Shown here one piece after another: positions 12,556 to 64,000 of a stretch of 64,000 nt of DNA. Position numbers and translations under genes: made by a program. The notes under the pieces are model-generated. The model saw only the letters and a program-made list of their open reading frames with translations, searched no databases and was not told where the DNA came from. Within the stretch, counting starts at the first letter, position 1. Each line of letters opens with the position of its first letter. Where the stretch lies: assembly GCF_056712565.1 (NCBI RefSeq), contig NZ_CM160072.1. One strand, 5' to 3'.

Positions 12556-13292
12556 TTCCTTTCAAATGAAACGGAGCTGCCATGCTCCGTTTACTTCGTC
12601 ATTATTTTTACTTTGTTCCTGCGCAGTTATCAAAAGCAAAAGGAATAGGTAAAAATATTCTTCTCAAATTACAGTTAGTTATAGGGATTTCCTTAACTGC
12701 TTCTCCTCACCATCATGTTATTTTCGCCACATCATAATCCTGGGCTTGCTGAAGAATAATTGAAATGATATTAGTAATTCCACTGCCTTTGGTAGAGGAA
12801 AGTGCTAAATAATAATCAATTGTTAAATTATTGTGCATTTCACTACTGGAACTGTAATCAGAAAAGAGAGACATGCTTAACCAACCTCTATTTGATTGAA
12901 TTGAAAGATGTTTGTTAAGGCATGGATGCAAGCTATAGATTCTGATACGGTCAATAAAAGAGAATTGCTTAACAATTTTGCAAAATGTATTGGCGAGTAA
13001 GAACCGCATTTGGTACTTTCCGGGCAACCGCCAGGCGATTCTTTATTGGTAATGAGAATAATTAACAATTAAAGATCGTCGCGAAAGAATAATGTGTCTC
13101 GACAGGGGAGACACAGTACGAATCGACATAAGGTGATCGTCTGAATCACCAGAATAAATAAAGTCGGTGATAGTAATACGTAACGATAAAGTAACCTGAC
13201 AGCAGAAAGTCTCCGAGCCTGTGCAGGGTCCCAATCCGGGATTACACATGCTGGTTAATACCAGTAATTATAATGAGGGAGTCCAAAAAACA

Positions 13293-26127: not shown

Positions 26128-26766
26128 ATGAAAAAGTTAACAGTGGCGGCTTTGGCAGTAGCAACTCTTCTCTCTGGCAGTGCCTTTGCACATGAAGCCG
26201 GCGAATTTTTTATGCGTGCAGGTTCTGCAACCGTACGTCCAACAGAAGGTGCTGGTGGTACGTTAGGAAGTTTGGGTGGATTCAGCGTGACCAATAACAC
26301 TCAACTGGGCCTGACGTTTACTTATATGGCGACCGACAACATTGGTGTGGAATTACTGGCAGCAACGCCGTTCCGCCATAAAATCGGCACCCGGGCGACC
26401 GGCGATATTGCAACCGTTCATCATCTGCCGCCAACACTGATGGCGCAGTGGTATTTTGGTGATGCCAGCAGCAAATTCCGTCCTTACGTTGGTGCAGGTA
26501 TTAACTACACCACCTTCTTTGATAATGGATTTAACGATCATGGCAAAGAGGCGGGGCTTTCCGATCTCAGTCTGAAAGACTCTTGGGGAGCTGCCGGGCA
26601 GGTGGGGGTTGATTATCTGATTAACCGTGACTGGTTGGTTAACATGTCAGTGTGGTACATGGATATCGATACCACGGCTAAGTACAAATCTGGTGTTACT
26701 ACCGTAAAAGACTCGGTACGACTGGATCCGTGGGTGTTTATGTTCTCCGCAGGATATCGTTTTTAA
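26128..26766 (+). CDS. ompW: Outer membrane protein W
   Basis: 212 aa from MKKLTVAALAVATLLSGSAFA (signal peptide), beta-barrel ending ...FSAGYRF. Confidence 0.93.
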   Translation: MKKLTVAALAVATLLSGSAFAHEAGEFFMRAGSATVRPTEGAGGTLGSLGGFSVTNNTQLGLTFTYMATDNIGVELLAATPFRHKIGTRATGDIATVHHLPPTLMAQWYFGDASSKFRPYVGAGINYTTFFDNGFNDHGKEAGLSDLSLKDSWGAAGQVGVDYLINRDWLVNMSVWYMDIDTTAKYKSGVTTVKDSVRLDPWVFMFSAGYRF

Positions 26767-26770
26767 TTTT

Positions 26771-26805
26771 CTCTGCAAAACCTCTGCAAAACCCCTCTGC
26801 AAAAC
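26771..26805 (+). repeat. Three tandem copies of ctctgcaaaac at the ompW/prophage junction
   Basis: Direct 11-bp repeats at 26771, 26782 and 26795, just before a hairpin and the integrase stop codon. Confidence 0.8.
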
Positions 26806-26830
26806 TGGTCATCAAATGACCAGTTTTTTC
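26805..26830 (+). terminator. Hairpin terminator after ompW
   Basis: ctggtcat-caa-atgaccag followed by T6; overlaps the 3' end of int on the opposite strand. Confidence 0.6.
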
Positions 26831-27942
26831 CATTCCTTACCGCGTGCGTCGTTGTAAATATCGGTCATTTTTTGATTCGAATGGCCCAGCAAAATTTTGG
26901 TATCAACCCCCTGCTCTCTGAACAATCGCTCTGATAAAGATCTCTGCTCATGGAAAGAGGGTGGGGTGCCATTAGCACGCCAGTTGTAATCCACAGAATC
27001 CCGGGCTTTTTTAAATGCAACGGTTAATGTTGCTGGCTTAACCATCCCGCCGCGCTTAGCTGTCCCTTTCGCGTGATGGTGGTGCAATAGCCACGGACTA
27101 AGAACGCAATCGCGGCAGGATGACACCACATCATCTAGGGTGAGATTTAATTTATCGCAACGCAGAGCCAGAGGGATGGCAATCCGGGTTCCTGTTTTTT
27201 GCTGTTCGACATGAAGATAACCATCCCGGATATCCGAAAATTGCATTTTGCAAATATCTGAAAGGCGCTGGCCTGTCATCAGTGCCAGCAGCATACCGCG
27301 CTGTAAAAAGTAACCATCCTTTTCCGCTGCGTTATAAATCATCATCCACTCATCAAAAGTCAGTCGCTGTCTTGATATCCGCACCTGCGGTTTTTTTGCC
27401 GATTCTGCAGGGTTAAAGCCTGGCGGGACATCGCCCGTTTGCTGAGCTTCCCGGAAAACATCGATCAGTACTTTCCTGAAAATTTGTCCCATTCTGTTAT
27501 GTCCTCTGGCCTTGTACTCTTCCAGTACTGATACCACATCTTTTACGGTTATGGCATCTAACGGTCTGGTGCCAAAACGTTCATCAAATACCCTGAGAGG
27601 GGCCGCTTTCTGTTTCAGCGTGTTGAGTTTGATCTCGCCGTTTTCATATCTTTCCTGTTGAATTTTTCTGTAATTATTCAGAAAAATGGTAACGGTTGAT
27701 GAACCGCCGGTGTCACTAATAATTTTCTCCTGCAGACTGAGCATTTGTTCCATTTGCTGCCGGGCAAGACGGCTGTTCGCTTCTGCTGCAATAGTTTCTG
27801 CCAGTTTCTGGTCAATACTGCCGAGACCGTGATTTTTGCCTGTTATGGGATGCCTGTAACGCCAGTAAACTTTGTTATTTCTTTTGTCAAAATACGGAGA
27901 TAATCCCGGAACATCGGTTTTATATTTTCGCGGGCGCGCCAT
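26812..27942 (-). CDS. int: Prophage tyrosine integrase (lambda Int family)
   Basis: 376 aa with tyrosine recombinase C-terminal catalytic region; lies at the prophage end next to ompW. Confidence 0.9.
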   Translation of the reverse strand: MARPRKYKTDVPGLSPYFDKRNNKVYWRYRHPITGKNHGLGSIDQKLAETIAAEANSRLARQQMEQMLSLQEKIISDTGGSSTVTIFLNNYRKIQQERYENGEIKLNTLKQKAAPLRVFDERFGTRPLDAITVKDVVSVLEEYKARGHNRMGQIFRKVLIDVFREAQQTGDVPPGFNPAESAKKPQVRISRQRLTFDEWMMIYNAAEKDGYFLQRGMLLALMTGQRLSDICKMQFSDIRDGYLHVEQQKTGTRIAIPLALRCDKLNLTLDDVVSSCRDCVLSPWLLHHHHAKGTAKRGGMVKPATLTVAFKKARDSVDYNWRANGTPPSFHEQRSLSERLFREQGVDTKILLGHSNQKMTDIYNDARGKEWKKLVI

Positions 27943-28168
27943 CTTCCAGTATCCTCTTCAAAGCAGGGTGATCTGTGGCGATCACCTCCGGCTTGTTTAC
28001 CATTCCGACAAAGCGAGCTTGCGGATCCACTCGCCAGCGTCTTCCAACTTTTTTGGGGAGAGGAAATATCATTCCGGCTTTAGCGTATTTACTTAACGTA
28101 CTCGGAGTAGGGACCGGTTCACTGAATTCCTCCTTTGCCCACTCAGTGAGCAGAATAAGTCTTGCCAT
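27920..28168 (-). CDS. xis: Excisionase / AlpA-like DNA-binding protein
   Basis: 82-aa protein overlapping the int start; ...PLPKKVGRRWRVD... motif typical of Xis family. Confidence 0.7.
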   Translation of the reverse strand: MARLILLTEWAKEEFSEPVPTPSTLSKYAKAGMIFPLPKKVGRRWRVDPQARFVGMVNKPEVIATDHPALKRILEDGAPAKI

Positions 28169-42868: not shown

Positions 42869-42944
42869 GGCCCTTTAGCTCAGTGGTGAGAGCGAGCGAC
42901 TCATAATCGCCAGGTCGCTGGTTCAAATCCAGCAAGGGCCACCA
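42869..42944 (+). tRNA. Phage tRNA with anticodon CAU (Ile2/Met; ileZ-like)
   Basis: 76-nt cloverleaf, acceptor ggccctt/aagggcc, anticodon loop ct-CAT-aa, T-loop GGTTCAAATCC, encoded CCA. Confidence 0.8.
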
Positions 42945-42951
42945 TCACATA

Positions 42952-43028
42952 CCGCCATTAGCTCATCAGGAAAGAGCGCCAGCCTTCGAAGCTGGTTGCG
43001 CGGAGTTCGGGTCCCCGAAGGCGGTCCA
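42952..43028 (+). tRNA. Phage tRNA-Arg (UCG), slightly degenerate (argN-like)
   Basis: Anticodon stem ccagc/gctgg with loop ct-TCG-aa; D-stem gctc/gagc; one acceptor and one T-stem mismatch; encoded CCA. Confidence 0.55.
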
Positions 43029-43041
43029 TTATCTGTATCCT

Positions 43042-43118
43042 GCGTTGTTAGCTCAGCCGGACAGAGCAATTGCCTTCTAAGCAATCGGTCACTGGTTCGA
43101 ATCCAGTACAACGCGCCA
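43042..43118 (+). tRNA. Phage tRNA-Arg (UCU) (argO-like)
   Basis: Perfect 7-bp acceptor gcgttgt/acaacgc, anticodon loop ct-TCT-aa, T-loop GGTTCGAATCC, encoded CCA. Confidence 0.8.
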
Positions 43119-43134
43119 CACTTATTTTCCCTGG

Positions 43135-62332: not shown

Positions 62333-63076
62333 ATGACAGAGACAGAATCAGCGATTCTGGCGCACGCCCGGCGATGTGCGCCAGCGGAGTCGTGCGGCTT
62401 CGTGGTAAGCACGCCGGAGGGGGAAAGATATTTCCCCTGCGTGAATATCTCCGGTGAGCCGGAGGCGTATTTCCGGATGGCTCCGGAGGACTGGCTGCAG
62501 GCAGAGATGCAGGGTGAGATTGTGGCGCTGGTCCACAGCCACCCCGGTGGTCTGCCCTGGCTGAGTGAGGCTGACCGGCGGCTGCAGGTGCAGAGCGATT
62601 TGCCGTGGTGGCTGGTCTGCCGGGGGGCGATTCACAAGTTCCGCTGTGTGCCGCATCTCACCGGGCGGCGCTTTGAGTACGGGGTGACAGACTGTTACAC
62701 ACTGTTCCGGGATGCTTACCATCTGGCGGGGATTGAGATGCCGGATTTTCATCGCGGGGATGACTGGTGGCGTCACGGTCAGAATCTCTATCTTGACAAT
62801 ATGGAGGCTACTGGTTTTTACCGTGTCGCACTGACAGAGGCGCAGCCGGGCGATGTGCTGCTGTGCTGTTTTGGTTCATCGGTGCCGAATCACGCCGCCA
62901 TTTACTGCGGCGACGGTGAGCTGCTGCACCATATTCCTGAACAACTGAGTAAACGAGAGAGGTATACCGACAAATGGCAGCGACGCACACACTCCCTCTG
63001 GCGTCACCGGGAATGGCACGCATCTGCCTTTACGGGGATTTGCAACGATTTGGCCGCCGCATCGACCTTCGTGTGA
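62333..63076 (+). CDS. Tail assembly protein K (JAMM/MPN + NlpC/P60)
   Basis: 247 aa from MTETESAIL; JAMM motif HSHPGG...SEAD and Cys-His peptidase motif. Confidence 0.8.
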   Translation: MTETESAILAHARRCAPAESCGFVVSTPEGERYFPCVNISGEPEAYFRMAPEDWLQAEMQGEIVALVHSHPGGLPWLSEADRRLQVQSDLPWWLVCRGAIHKFRCVPHLTGRRFEYGVTDCYTLFRDAYHLAGIEMPDFHRGDDWWRHGQNLYLDNMEATGFYRVALTEAQPGDVLLCCFGSSVPNHAAIYCGDGELLHHIPEQLSKRERYTDKWQRRTHSLWRHREWHASAFTGICNDLAAASTFV

Positions 63077-63615
63077 AAACGGGGGCTGAAGCCATCCGGG
63101 CACTGGCCACACAGCTCCCGGCGTTTCGTCAGAAACTGAGCGATGGCTGGTATCAGGTACGGATTGCCGGGCGGGATGCAGGAGAAACCGAATTATCATC
63201 CCGTCTTAATGAGCCGCTGGCAAATGGTGCCGTGATCCACATCGTGCCGCGTCTTGCGGGAGCAAAAAGTGGCGGTGTGTTTCAGGCGGTGCTGGGTGCG
63301 GCGTTGATTGCTACGGCAATCTGGATGCCGGGGATCAGTATCGCTTTCAGTGACATTCTCTTTTCAATGGGTGCGGCGATGACGCTTGGTGGTGTGGCGC
63401 AGATGCTGGCACCGAAAGCCAGAACTCCCCGTACACAGACAACGGATAACGGCAAACAGAACACCTATTTCTCCTCACTGGATAACATGGTTGCCCAGGG
63501 CAATGTCCTGCCTGTTCTGTACGGTGAAATGCGCGTGGGGTCACGTGTGGCATCTCAGGAGATCAGCACGGCAGATGAAGGGGATGGTGGTCAGGTTGTG
63601 GTAATTGGGCGGTAA
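62974..63615 (+). CDS. Tail assembly protein I
   Basis: 213 aa, lambda gpI-like (...CLYGDLQRFGRRIDLRVKTGAEAIRALATQLPAFRQKLSDGWYQVRIAGRD...). Confidence 0.82.
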   Translation: MAATHTLPLASPGMARICLYGDLQRFGRRIDLRVKTGAEAIRALATQLPAFRQKLSDGWYQVRIAGRDAGETELSSRLNEPLANGAVIHIVPRLAGAKSGGVFQAVLGAALIATAIWMPGISIAFSDILFSMGAAMTLGGVAQMLAPKARTPRTQTTDNGKQNTYFSSLDNMVAQGNVLPVLYGEMRVGSRVASQEISTADEGDGGQVVVIGR

Positions 63616-63688
63616 TATTATTTTACTCATGTTCTAACTAATTTAATATTTATATCGAACACTGATAATTATTCTATTGGTTAGCTAT

Positions 63689-64000
63689 ATGAACAAAACG
63701 ATTTTATTCTGCACGATTATTGCCTTAACAGGATGTAAATCTTTGGATTACGTAAAATCCGGAAAACCTGTAATGGAAGGTAATTCATTAAAAAATATTG
63801 ATGAATTGTCAGGCTGCATATCCAGACAATGGGCTGGTAATGGAACACCTATAACATCCCTTCCTATTGAGAATGGGGTAAGCCTTTTAGTTCCACAGGC
63901 TATGGGGGGATATGATGTTGTGCTTGATATCAAAAAAGCAGGAAATGGCAGTAGTTTTACTCTTTATGAACGTGTACCAGCATTAACGCCAAAAATTTTT
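63689..64000 (+). CDS. AT-rich lipoprotein moron (partial, runs off the window end)
   Basis: ATG at 63689; MNKTILFCTIIALTGC lipobox; open frame to 64000; not in the ORF track because no stop is reached. Confidence 0.5.
   Translation, partial: MNKTILFCTIIALTGCKSLDYVKSGKPVMEGNSLKNIDELSGCISRQWAGNGTPITSLPIENGVSLLVPQAMGGYDVVLDIKKAGNGSSFTLYERVPALTPKIF

What the first reader, a model, noticed from the sequence alone, without database searches (positions are those of the whole stretch)
63616..64000. AT-rich lipoprotein gene inserted after tail gene I
Directly after gene I, where lambda continues into J, the sequence becomes sharply AT-rich and encodes a protein starting MNKTILFCTIIALTGC (signal peptide plus lipobox) that runs off the window end. 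It is missed by the ORF track because no stop codon is reached. Phage-borne lipoproteins in tail-region cargo positions are often superinfection-exclusion or host-surface factors.
Basis: partly seen in the sequence, partly recalled or inferred. Interest (0 to 1): 0.45.

Follow-up and report, generated by a model that had tools for sequence, protein, structure and literature searches.

The report
Uncharacterised lipoprotein moron between tail genes
A lambda-like prophage of pathogenic E. coli carries an extra, AT-rich gene between tail genes I and J that encodes a small outer-membrane lipoprotein of a widespread but unstudied family, probably a cargo gene that keeps other phages out, though no experiment has tested this.

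Summary
After the stop codon of tail gene I (window 63615), GC falls from about 0.57 to 0.28. An ORF starts at 63689 (MNKTILFCTIIALTGC…) and runs off the window end. In E. coli UTI89, 100% identical over the 601 bases compared, it is a complete 112-aa gene, with J resuming 66 nt downstream. The insert is about 430 bp relative to lambda. It occurs in 336 of 5,426 complete E. coli genomes, and the ORF is under purifying selection.

The protein belongs to PHROG 914 (function unknown). It has no Pfam, NCBIfam or PADLOC match. It is not homologous to Cor, T5 Llp, the mEpimmI Lpp proteins, or Bor/Iss. The whole family keeps a lipobox, has no Asp at +2, and keeps two further Cys. The AlphaFold model is confident (pLDDT 90.7) and shows a generic small alpha/beta fold.

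In phages, family members occupy three tail-module slots (T|H, K|I, I|J). They also occur on a plasmid-like contig and in chromosomes. So this is mobile cargo, not a virion part.

The same protein travels with at least four different J receptor-binding domains. That weakens a strict model in which it masks its own phage's receptor.

Best reading: an envelope-level phage-exclusion lipoprotein, a new family of a known kind. The function is inferred, not shown. Interest is moderate.

The parts
62333..63076 (+). Tail gene K (C40/NlpC-P60 plus JAB peptidase), upstream neighbour in the late tail operon
   Evidence: RefSeq annotation of the identical UTI89 sequence, L001:10934-11677 (window = L001 + 51399). 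ORF listed.
63040..63615 (+). Tail assembly gene I. Its stop codon (TAA, 63613-63615) is the left edge of the insert.
   Evidence: About 96-97% identical to gene I of lambda-type phages over the last ~210 nt.
63616..63688 (+). 73-nt AT-rich spacer upstream of the lipoprotein ORF. It contains only weak sigma-70-like candidates (best TTAATA-15 nt-GATAAT at 63643-63669) and a weak ribosome-binding site.
   Evidence: Sequence. The consensus scan finds no + strand promoter at its threshold. The relaxed scan scores 9 of 12 with a suboptimal spacer.
63689..63736 (+). Lipoprotein signal peptide (residues 1-15, MNKTILFCTIIALTG) and the lipidated Cys16 codon (63734-63736). Lipobox LTGC, with +2 Lys and +3 Ser.
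   Evidence: Translation. Cys16 is invariant in 51 homologues and none has Asp at +2.
63689..64000 (+). Lipoprotein ORF (PHROG 914). The first 104 of 112 codons are in the window; the stop codon would lie at window-equivalent 64025-64027.
   Evidence: PHROG 914 full-length match, E 7e-33. AlphaFold2 pLDDT 90.7. Purifying selection.

Best explanation
The feature is a moron: about 430 bp of foreign, AT-rich DNA inserted between tail genes I and J of a lambda-type prophage integrated at ompW. It carries one gene for a 112-aa prolipoprotein of an uncharacterised, Proteobacteria-wide family (PHROG 914).

Shown:
- It is an insertion.
- The ORF is intact and under purifying selection.
- It has a canonical lipobox and no Asp at +2.
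- Three Cys are invariant.
- The model is a confident, compact alpha/beta fold.
- It lies on the same strand as the late tail operon.
- Homologues recur in three tail-module moron slots and also outside phages.

Inferred:
- Cys43 and Cys111 form a disulfide that pins the C-terminus.
- It is not part of the virion.
- It is at least co-transcribed with the late operon. Expression in the lysogen is unproven.

Proposed function: from the periplasmic face of the outer membrane it blocks phage entry. That would give superinfection exclusion and possibly protect progeny from adsorbing to cell debris.

The identical protein rides with several different J receptor-binding domains. I therefore favour a target common to many lambdoid infections, either the incoming tail tip or tape measure (as for HK97 gp15 or Gram-positive Ltp) or a conserved outer-membrane partner, over the specific receptor of its own J.
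For: Insertion and composition.

Complete ORF and distribution: the ORF is complete in UTI89. The insert is in 336 of 5,426 complete E. coli genomes.

Selection: of 15 substitution sites in the ORF, about 10 are synonymous and 5 non-synonymous. 29 of 31 copies are intact. Strain 40EC differs at 1.9% of insert nucleotides yet encodes the identical protein.

Lipoprotein signature across the family: 51 members have a lipobox-type site, none has Asp at +2, 46 of 50 have exactly three Cys in the mature protein, and in 46 of 50 the last Cys is the penultimate residue.

Fold: pLDDT 90.7, pTM 0.80.

Tail-module slots:
- I|J in 28 E. coli loci.
- K|I in Fraca, LMessi, Klebsiella prophages, a soil metagenome contig and others.
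- T|H in L057-L062. This is the slot of the HK97 gp15 exclusion moron (PMC3594210).
- HK022 has annotated morons at K|I and I|J.

Precedents:
- Lipoprotein genes inside structural clusters were shown to exclude phages in mEpimmI phages (PMC11893012).
- Llp is a periplasm-facing outer-membrane lipoprotein with a disulfide constraining both termini (bioRxiv 10.1101/2022.06.28.497910).
- Exclusion factors are encoded next to the J-like hub in small siphoviruses (PMC11990801).

Independence from receptor type: lipoprotein copies 99-100% identical are linked to at least four J C-terminal types.
Against: - There is no functional data for any member of the family, and no paper mentions the protein.
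- The mature domain is not homologous to Cor, Llp, Lpp021 or Lpp010. Only the signal peptide and lipobox align.
- There is no PADLOC hit.
- No convincing own promoter was found. The downstream hairpin is resident in the I-J spacer. Expression from the repressed prophage, expected for classical exclusion, is therefore unsupported.
- Chromosomal members (Shimwellia blattae next to ecotin; another gammaproteobacterium) and plasmid-borne members show the fold has cellular roles outside phage biology.
- No Gram-negative outer-membrane lipoprotein is yet known to exclude phages by intercepting the tail.
Confidence: 0.45

Rival explanations
1. Receptor masking of the Cor/Llp type. The lipoprotein binds the periplasmic face of the specific outer-membrane receptor used by its own phage's J protein and allosterically prevents adsorption. 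This would exclude phages using the same receptor and protect progeny from cell debris.
For: - Every characterised Gram-negative phage exclusion lipoprotein works on a receptor: Llp and Cor on FhuA, Lpp021 with OmpA-using phages, Lpp010 with LamB-using phages.
- The architecture is the same: outer-membrane lipoprotein, no Asp at +2, and a disulfide to a Cys at the extreme C-terminus. HK022 Cor ends TTCK; this protein ends NACK.
- The gene lies directly upstream of J.
Against: - Lipoprotein copies 99-100% identical are linked to at least four J C-terminal domain types. Three are lambda-fold types sharing only 41-64% identity. One is HK022-like with a different architecture.
- The same J type occurs in many Stx phages that lack the gene.
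- Klebsiella homologues at 52% identity sit next to J proteins of more than 3,100 aa.
- There is no homology to Cor, Llp or the Lpp proteins.
- The mature domain is about 97 aa, against about 60 aa for those proteins.
Confidence: 0.2
2. A host-fitness or virulence cargo unrelated to phages. An outer-membrane lipoprotein that benefits the lysogen, for example through serum resistance like Bor/Iss, envelope homeostasis or stress tolerance, and is kept because it helps extraintestinal pathogenic strains.
For: - The listed carriers include many extraintestinal pathogenic isolates: UTI89, S88, APEC O1, IHE3034, NU14.
- The same prophage carries the Lom/Ail outer-membrane virulence-type moron after J.
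- The family has chromosomal members in non-prophage contexts and plasmid members.
- The fold resembles Francisella Flpp3 and the BamC N-domain, both bacterial envelope lipoproteins.
Against: - It is not a Bor/Iss or TraT homologue. No Pfam hit appears even at E <= 10.
- In phages the family is embedded in tail modules in every phage locus examined (three slots), rather than at the usual virulence-cargo sites.
- It also occurs in O104:H4, food, animal and environmental isolates.
- No clear lysogen promoter was found.
Confidence: 0.2
3. A phage-cycle accessory of the tail-tip module. For example, a periplasmic immunity or inhibitor protein for the NlpC/P60-JAB peptidase K, by analogy with type VI secretion amidase effector and immunity pairs, or a factor acting at lysis or release.
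For: - In most divergent homologues the gene lies immediately downstream of K. In the soil contig L025 it overlaps K's stop by 4 nt, which suggests translational coupling.
- In phage loci it is always on the same strand and inside the late tail operon.
Against: - In E. coli the gene follows I, not K. In L057-L062 it precedes the tape measure gene, about 4 kb from K.
- Plasmid and chromosomal copies have no K nearby.
- Most lambda-type phages that have K lack the gene.
- K is not established as a periplasm-delivered enzyme (own knowledge).
Confidence: 0.08
4. A non-functional hitchhiker: a decaying remnant of horizontally acquired DNA with no current role.
For: - Weak ribosome-binding site and no clear promoter.
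- 2 of 31 copies are frameshifted.
- Truncated variants exist in databases (P0002, P0018).
Against: - Excess of synonymous changes, rough dN/dS about 0.16, and 29 of 31 copies intact.
- The family is conserved across Proteobacteria with invariant Cys residues and a confidently predicted fold.
Confidence: 0.03

Closest known systems
Cor (phi80, N15, HK022, T1) and Llp (T5) superinfection-exclusion lipoproteins
   Same: - Phage-encoded small outer-membrane lipoprotein with a canonical lipobox.
- An intramolecular disulfide reaches a Cys at or near the C-terminus.
- The gene sits in or next to the tail-fibre / receptor-binding region.
- Expected location on the periplasmic face of the outer membrane.
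   Different: - No homology beyond the signal peptide and lipobox.
- The mature domain is about 97 aa with a beta-alpha-beta4-alpha fold, against about 60 aa.
- It is not tied to FhuA-type or any single J receptor-binding domain.
- No functional data.
mEpimmI Lpp exclusion lipoproteins (Lpp021 type A, Lpp010 type C; PMC11893012)
   Same: Lipoprotein genes located inside the structural gene cluster of temperate E. coli siphophages. These were shown experimentally to exclude phages in a receptor-correlated way.
   Different: - They are 72 and 82 aa, lie downstream of J on the opposite strand, and are unrelated in sequence.
- The window protein is 112 aa and lies on the same strand between I and J.
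HK97 gp15 moron (YebO-like inner-membrane exclusion protein)
   Same: - A moron inside the tail operon.
- One subgroup of this family (L057-L062) occupies exactly the gp15 slot, between the chaperone genes G/T and the tape measure gene.
- gp15 has chromosomal homologues, as this family does.
- gp15's exclusion depends on the incoming tail, not the receptor. That fits the independence from J type seen here.
   Different: gp15 is a small inner-membrane protein, not a lipoprotein. There is no sequence relationship: no Pfam or other family hit.
Lambda Bor / ExPEC Iss serum-resistance lipoproteins
   Same: A prophage-borne outer-membrane lipoprotein moron of about 100 aa found in pathogenic E. coli.
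   Different: - No Pfam match of any kind, so no match to the Pfam Bor family.
- Different genomic position: bor lies near the lysis genes (own knowledge).
Pseudomonas phage AH14a gp83 and related 'K|I lipoproteins' (PMC4936722)
   Same: - A lipoprotein gene between tail genes K and I of a siphophage. The authors proposed, without testing, that it is Cor-like.
- A protein from the same phage is the best viral structural match (BFVD A0A1B0VMC6, E 2e-5, TM 0.70/0.83). I did not confirm that this protein is gp83.
   Different: Only about 24% identical. The host is Pseudomonas, the slot is K|I rather than I|J, and it is also uncharacterised.

Membership tests
Bacterial lipoprotein (Lgt/Lsp/Lnt substrate, Lol-sorted to the outer membrane) | N-terminal signal peptide with a basic n-region, a hydrophobic core and a lipobox [LVI][ASTVI][GAS]C | tested here: met
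   The N-terminus is MNK-TILFCTIIA-LTGC. The Cys is invariant in 51 homologues and lipobox-type sites occur in all of them.
Bacterial lipoprotein (Lgt/Lsp/Lnt substrate, Lol-sorted to the outer membrane) | No Asp at +2 (the inner-membrane retention signal), implying outer-membrane sorting | tested here: met
   +2 is Lys. Across the family +2 is A, K, S, V, T, G, E or I, never D. The sorting rule is established knowledge.
Bacterial lipoprotein (Lgt/Lsp/Lnt substrate, Lol-sorted to the outer membrane) | Actual lipidation and outer-membrane localisation | not testable with these tools
   This needs globomycin sensitivity, palmitate labelling and membrane fractionation.
Moron (Juhala/Hendrix definition) | Extra DNA between genes that are adjacent in related phages | tested here: met
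   About 430 bp are present between I and J relative to lambda-type junctions. Phage records match only the I part of the query.
Moron (Juhala/Hendrix definition) | Base composition differs from the flanking genes | tested here: met
   GC is 0.36 for the gene and 0.28 at the minimum, against 0.52-0.57 in the flanks.
Moron (Juhala/Hendrix definition) | Own promoter and own terminator | tested here: inconclusive
   No + strand promoter reaches the scan threshold. The best relaxed candidate scores 9 of 12 with a 15-nt spacer. The downstream hairpin with a T-tract exists but is also present in the empty lambda I-J spacer, so it is not the moron's own.
Moron (Juhala/Hendrix definition) | Expressed from the repressed prophage | not testable with these tools
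   This needs RNA-seq or 5'RACE of an uninduced UTI89 lysogen.
PHROG 914 | Full-length significant match to the family profile | tested here: met
   E 7.3e-33, residues 1-112 against profile positions 1-118 of 118. The family is annotated 'unknown function'.
Cor superinfection-exclusion family | Sequence homology of the mature protein to Cor | tested here: not met
   hhalign of the 51-sequence profile against HK022 Cor aligns only 30 columns: the signal peptide, the lipobox and a short tether.
Cor superinfection-exclusion family | Association with FhuA-dependent phages and inactivation of FhuA | tested here: inconclusive
   Most linked J C-termini are lambda-fold types. Only L028 and L039 are HK022-like, at 37% identity. 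The receptors of these J types are unknown, and FhuA inactivation cannot be tested here.
T5 Llp (lytic conversion lipoprotein) | Sequence or fold homology to Llp (PDB 8a60_B, 7qjf) | tested here: not met
mEpimmI Lpp type A / type C | Sequence homology to Lpp021 or Lpp010 | tested here: not met
   Only 17-20 signal-peptide columns align, at probability 47-52%.
Bor/Iss, TraT, Rz1 and other named phage or plasmid lipoprotein families in Pfam | Match to the Pfam family profile | tested here: not met
   The query has no Pfam match even at E <= 10, and none of the 51 members has a match at E <= 0.001.
Known anti-phage defence systems (PADLOC) | Match to a PADLOC model | tested here: not met
   0 families at E <= 1.
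Virion structural tail component | Fixed position and universal presence in related tail modules; a cytoplasmic protein incorporated into tails | tested here: not met
   The gene occupies three different slots, is absent from lambda and most relatives, also occurs on a plasmid-like contig and in chromosomes, and has an invariant export/lipidation signal. Virion proteomics was not possible.

The most novel reading that the evidence does not exclude
PHROG 914 proteins are a Proteobacteria-wide class of outer-membrane-anchored, periplasm-facing 'tail interceptors'. They would stop siphophage infection after adsorption by binding the incoming tail-tip or tape-measure machinery, or by neutralising the K peptidase, rather than by masking a receptor. 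This would be the first Gram-negative counterpart of the Gram-positive Ltp mechanism. It would also explain why these genes hop between three slots of the tail module while staying independent of the J receptor-binding domain.
Probability: 0.2. Interest if true: 0.65.

Novelty: new variant of a known kind. Interest (0 to 1): 0.4.

Why it matters
If the protein excludes phages, it defines a new and common family of prophage-encoded envelope defences. The insert is in about 6% of complete E. coli genomes, and homologues occur in Klebsiella, Enterobacter, Salmonella, Serratia, Pseudomonas and Bordetella. The family is missing from current defence catalogues (no PADLOC, Pfam or NCBIfam model).

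That matters for predicting phage host range and for phage therapy against uropathogenic and avian pathogenic E. coli and Klebsiella. If exclusion turns out to be independent of the receptor, it would add a mechanism not yet described in Gram-negative bacteria.

The gene is small, self-contained and easy to test by expression in E. coli K-12.

Tried and rejected
1. Known families. Pfam (query and all 51 members), NCBIfam, PADLOC, and PDB sequence searches with both the single sequence and the profile gave nothing meaningful. The only NCBIfam hit (VirB7, 12.7 bits against a cutoff of 60) covers the signal peptide.
2. Homology to Cor, Llp, Lpp021 and Lpp010. Rejected: only the signal peptide and lipobox align.
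4. The stem-loop before J as the moron's own terminator. Rejected: the same hairpin is in the empty lambda I-J spacer.
5. A strong own promoter. Not found.
6. Coupling to one J receptor-binding type. Rejected: at least four types.
7. Giant proteins (2,000-3,700 aa) that hit residues 23-56 in the deep search. These are repeat adhesins with SYQWQRNG-type repeats, so the match is compositional.
8. A non-coding RNA reading of the insert. The only hit is a sub-threshold GcvB match, 19.6 bits against a gathering score of 42.
9. The search for related loci with the 51-sequence alignment failed because it had no conserved stretch. The 12-sequence alignment worked.
10. Literature. No paper mentions WP_001332187 or a K/I/J-embedded lipoprotein with a tested function. 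The primary HK97 gp15 paper is not held; I used the review PMC3594210 instead.
11. Several metagenomic contigs were too short to give context.

Full report
OBSERVATION

Tail gene I ends at window 63615. Immediately after it, GC in 200-nt windows falls from 0.55-0.59 to 0.28 at 63600-63799. An ORF begins with ATG at 63689 and reads MNKTILFCTIIALTGCKSLDY... for 104 codons to the window end without a stop. The ORF list omits it only because ORFs that run off the source are not listed.

Window 63400-64000 is 100% identical to E. coli UTI89, S88, APEC O1, IHE3034 and many other strains, mostly extraintestinal pathogenic isolates. In UTI89 the ORF is complete: 339 nt, 112 aa, WP_001332187.1, annotated 'hypothetical protein'. 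Gene J starts 66 nt after its stop.

ANATOMY

The window ends inside an apparently complete lambdoid prophage integrated at ompW. The integrase gene lies at about window 26.8 kb. An antitermination protein gene (presumably the late-gene regulator Q) and then the lysis, head and tail genes follow in the lambda order. The lom, stf and tfa genes lie beyond the window.

Alignment with an 'empty' lambda-type I-J junction shows about 430 bp of extra DNA. It sits between the I stop codon and a stem-loop with a T-tract that precedes J. That hairpin (9 bp, 6 GC pairs) is also present in the empty lambda spacer. It is therefore a resident feature of the I-J spacer and not a terminator brought in by the insert.

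The 73-nt spacer upstream of the ORF is very AT-rich. It contains only weak sigma-70-like candidates, the best being TTAATA-15 nt-GATAAT, and a weak ribosome-binding site. Co-transcription with the late tail operon is the only expression route the sequence guarantees. Expression in the lysogen is unproven.

No known RNA family explains the region.

IS IT A REAL GENE?

The insert is present in 336 of 5,426 complete E. coli genomes, almost always as a single copy. Sequence matching gene I occurs in 4,211 genomes.

I compared 31 E. coli-type copies. Of 15 substitution sites in the ORF, about 10 are synonymous and 5 non-synonymous, giving a rough dN/dS of about 0.16. 29 of 31 copies are intact. 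Strain 40EC differs at 1.9% of insert nucleotides yet encodes the identical protein. The ORF is under purifying selection.

THE PROTEIN

It has a textbook lipoprotein signal: a basic n-region, a 10-residue hydrophobic core, lipobox LTGC, and Lys at +2 and Ser at +3.

- It matches PHROG 914 ('unknown function') over its full length, E 7e-33.
- It matches nothing in Pfam, NCBIfam, PADLOC or PDB sequences.
- An exhaustive search of 1.84 billion representative proteins found 59 hits at E <= 0.001. About 45 of them are lipoproteins of 107-147 aa.

In a 51-sequence alignment the only invariant residues are Cys16 (the lipidation site), Cys43 and Cys111. No member has Asp at +2. 46 of 50 have exactly three Cys in the mature protein, and in 46 of 50 the last Cys is the penultimate residue. 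I infer an outer-membrane lipoprotein with a Cys43-Cys111 disulfide pinning the C-terminus.

AlphaFold2 run on this alignment gives a confident model: pLDDT 90.7, pTM 0.80, topology beta-alpha-beta4-alpha.

- AFDB50 returns 163 structural relatives, nearly all labelled just 'Lipoprotein'. They come from Serratia, Klebsiella, Salmonella, Pseudomonas, Bordetella, Pandoraea, Glaesserella and Sodalis.
- The best viral match is a protein of Pseudomonas phage phiAH14a. The authors of that genome had speculated, without testing, that a lipoprotein between K and I is Cor-like.

COMPARISON WITH KNOWN EXCLUSION LIPOPROTEINS

I compared the family profile with four proteins:
- HK022 Cor (sequence)
- T5 Llp (sequence verified against PDB 8a60_B)
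- Lpp021 of the mEpimmI phages
- Lpp010 of the mEpimmI phages

The two Lpp proteins are experimentally proven exclusion lipoproteins (PMC11893012). In every comparison only the signal peptide and lipobox align. The protein is therefore not a member of any of these families.

It does share their architectural principle. Llp is a periplasm-facing outer-membrane lipoprotein whose other two Cys form a disulfide 'constraining both termini'. HK022 Cor ends ...TTCK and this protein ends ...NACK.

GENOMIC CONTEXT OF THE FAMILY

I mapped K, I, J and L homologues in the loci fetched for family context. In phage loci the gene is always on the tail-operon strand. It occupies three different slots.

1. L-K-I-LPP-J. 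This order is found in 28 E. coli lambda-type loci. The lipoprotein is 99-100% identical in nearly all of them (two decayed copies aside), while K varies 91-99% and I 69-100%.
2. L-K-LPP-I-J. This order is found in phages Fraca and LMessi, Klebsiella prophages, L019, L055, L056, L063 and L064. It is also found in a forest-soil contig, where the gene overlaps K's stop by 4 nt. In L012-L014 a 4.7-kb Arc/Bro/ANT block lies between K and the gene.
3. G-T-LPP-tape measure. This order is found in L057-L062. [quoted passage not shown]

HK022 itself has annotated morons at K|I and I|J.

Outside phages, the family occurs on a plasmid-like contig with two tandem copies next to a Rep3 gene. It also occurs in plain chromosomal contexts: Shimwellia blattae next to ecotin, and another gammaproteobacterium.

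This distribution, together with the invariant export signal, rules out a fixed virion component. It identifies a mobile cargo gene with a strong preference for tail-module moron slots.

A TEST OF THE SIMPLEST MECHANISM

If the protein masked its own phage's receptor, as Cor and Llp do, it should co-vary with the J receptor-binding domain. It does not. Lipoprotein copies 99-100% identical are linked to at least four J C-terminal types:
- the UTI89 type (47% identical to lambda J over the last 170 aa);
- an L038 type (64% identical to the UTI89 type);
- an L029/L036 type (45%);
- an L028/L039 type with a different, HK022-like C-terminal architecture.

Conversely, the UTI89 J type is common in Stx phages that lack the gene. 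Recombination within J could uncouple the two, so this result weakens receptor-specific masking but does not exclude it.

INTERPRETATION

What is shown:
- an inserted, selected, intact gene;
- a canonical outer-membrane lipoprotein signature;
- a confident small alpha/beta fold;
- membership of an uncharacterised, widespread family that repeatedly lands in tail-module moron slots.

What is inferred: the function.

The best-supported reading (about 0.45) is envelope-level phage exclusion. Because the gene is independent of J type and one subgroup shares the gp15 slot, I lean towards a target common to lambdoid infections. That target could be the incoming tail tip or tape measure, or a conserved outer-membrane partner.

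Rivals:
- Cor/Llp-type own-receptor masking (0.2);
- a host-fitness or virulence lipoprotein in the manner of Bor/Iss (0.2);
- a tail-tip accessory such as an immunity protein for the K peptidase (0.08);
- junk (0.03, contradicted by selection).

NOVELTY AND SCORE

No paper mentions the protein, and no defence or domain database models it. The kind of element is well known: a moron lipoprotein in a tail module. The family is new to that kind and unrelated in sequence and fold to the characterised examples. I therefore rate it 'new variant of a known kind'.

Interest is moderate (0.4). The finding is not surprising to a phage biologist, but the family is common, uncatalogued and simple to test. 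A realistic minority outcome, receptor-independent interception from the outer membrane, would be new for Gram-negative bacteria.

Noticed in passing
window 26129-27943 (ompW, int); right end in L001:22322-22447: The prophage is integrated at the 3' end of ompW. An intact ompW lies at the left junction and a short ompW fragment at the right end. 'PPompW' prophage records carry a J C-terminus about 97% identical to this prophage's.
   Followed up: partly
window 42870-43119: The prophage carries three tRNA genes (Ile, Arg, Arg). They lie just after a DNA methyltransferase gene that follows the antitermination protein gene, and upstream of the lysis genes.
   Followed up: no
L001:12652-12682 (window-equivalent 64051-64081, just beyond the window); lambda spacer L021:~640-670: A GC-rich stem-loop followed by a T-tract lies in the I-J spacer inside the late operon. 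It is conserved between this prophage and lambda-type phages that lack the insert. Its role is not clear (an antiterminated terminator, or an RNA stability or processing element).
   Followed up: partly
L001:12206-12224 and 12662-12680 (window 63605-63623 and beyond the window): The octamer TTGGGCGG occurs at both edges of the insert, 456 nt apart: once at the end of gene I and once in the 3' arm of the hairpin. It could be a microhomology for gain or loss of the insert, or chance.
   Followed up: no
L015:904-1272 and 1393-1740: A plasmid-like metagenomic contig (Rep3, ParA, resolvase, YafO/PhdYeFM toxin-antitoxin) carries two tandem PHROG 914 paralogues next to the replication gene. The family therefore also travels on plasmids.
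   Followed up: partly
L012:1420-5939, L013, L014: In these prophages a variable block of about 4.7 kb sits between tail genes K and I, just upstream of the lipoprotein gene. It contains Arc-like repressors, Bro-N/KilA-N/ANT antirepressor-type genes and, in one case, a SocA_Panacea gene. This makes the K|I junction a large cargo hot-spot.
   Followed up: no
L002:4725-4994 (phage Fraca) and L003:4647-4994 (LMessi): A second small ORF (89 aa, PHROG 2320, function unknown) lies between K and the lipoprotein gene and ends 6 nt before it. It may be a two-gene cargo unit.
   Followed up: no
L001:20739-21407: A class I SAM-dependent methyltransferase gene lies on the opposite strand, just after the tail-fibre assembly gene at the right end of the UTI89 prophage. 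It is followed by fragments of tail-fibre genes. This is another likely cargo region.
   Followed up: no
L017:6001-6339 (Shimwellia blattae CP001560.1): A chromosomal, non-prophage family member (42% identical by tblastn) lies between a YidB-like gene and ecotin, near copC, copD and yebY. This suggests the phage genes derive from a cellular envelope lipoprotein.
   Followed up: partly
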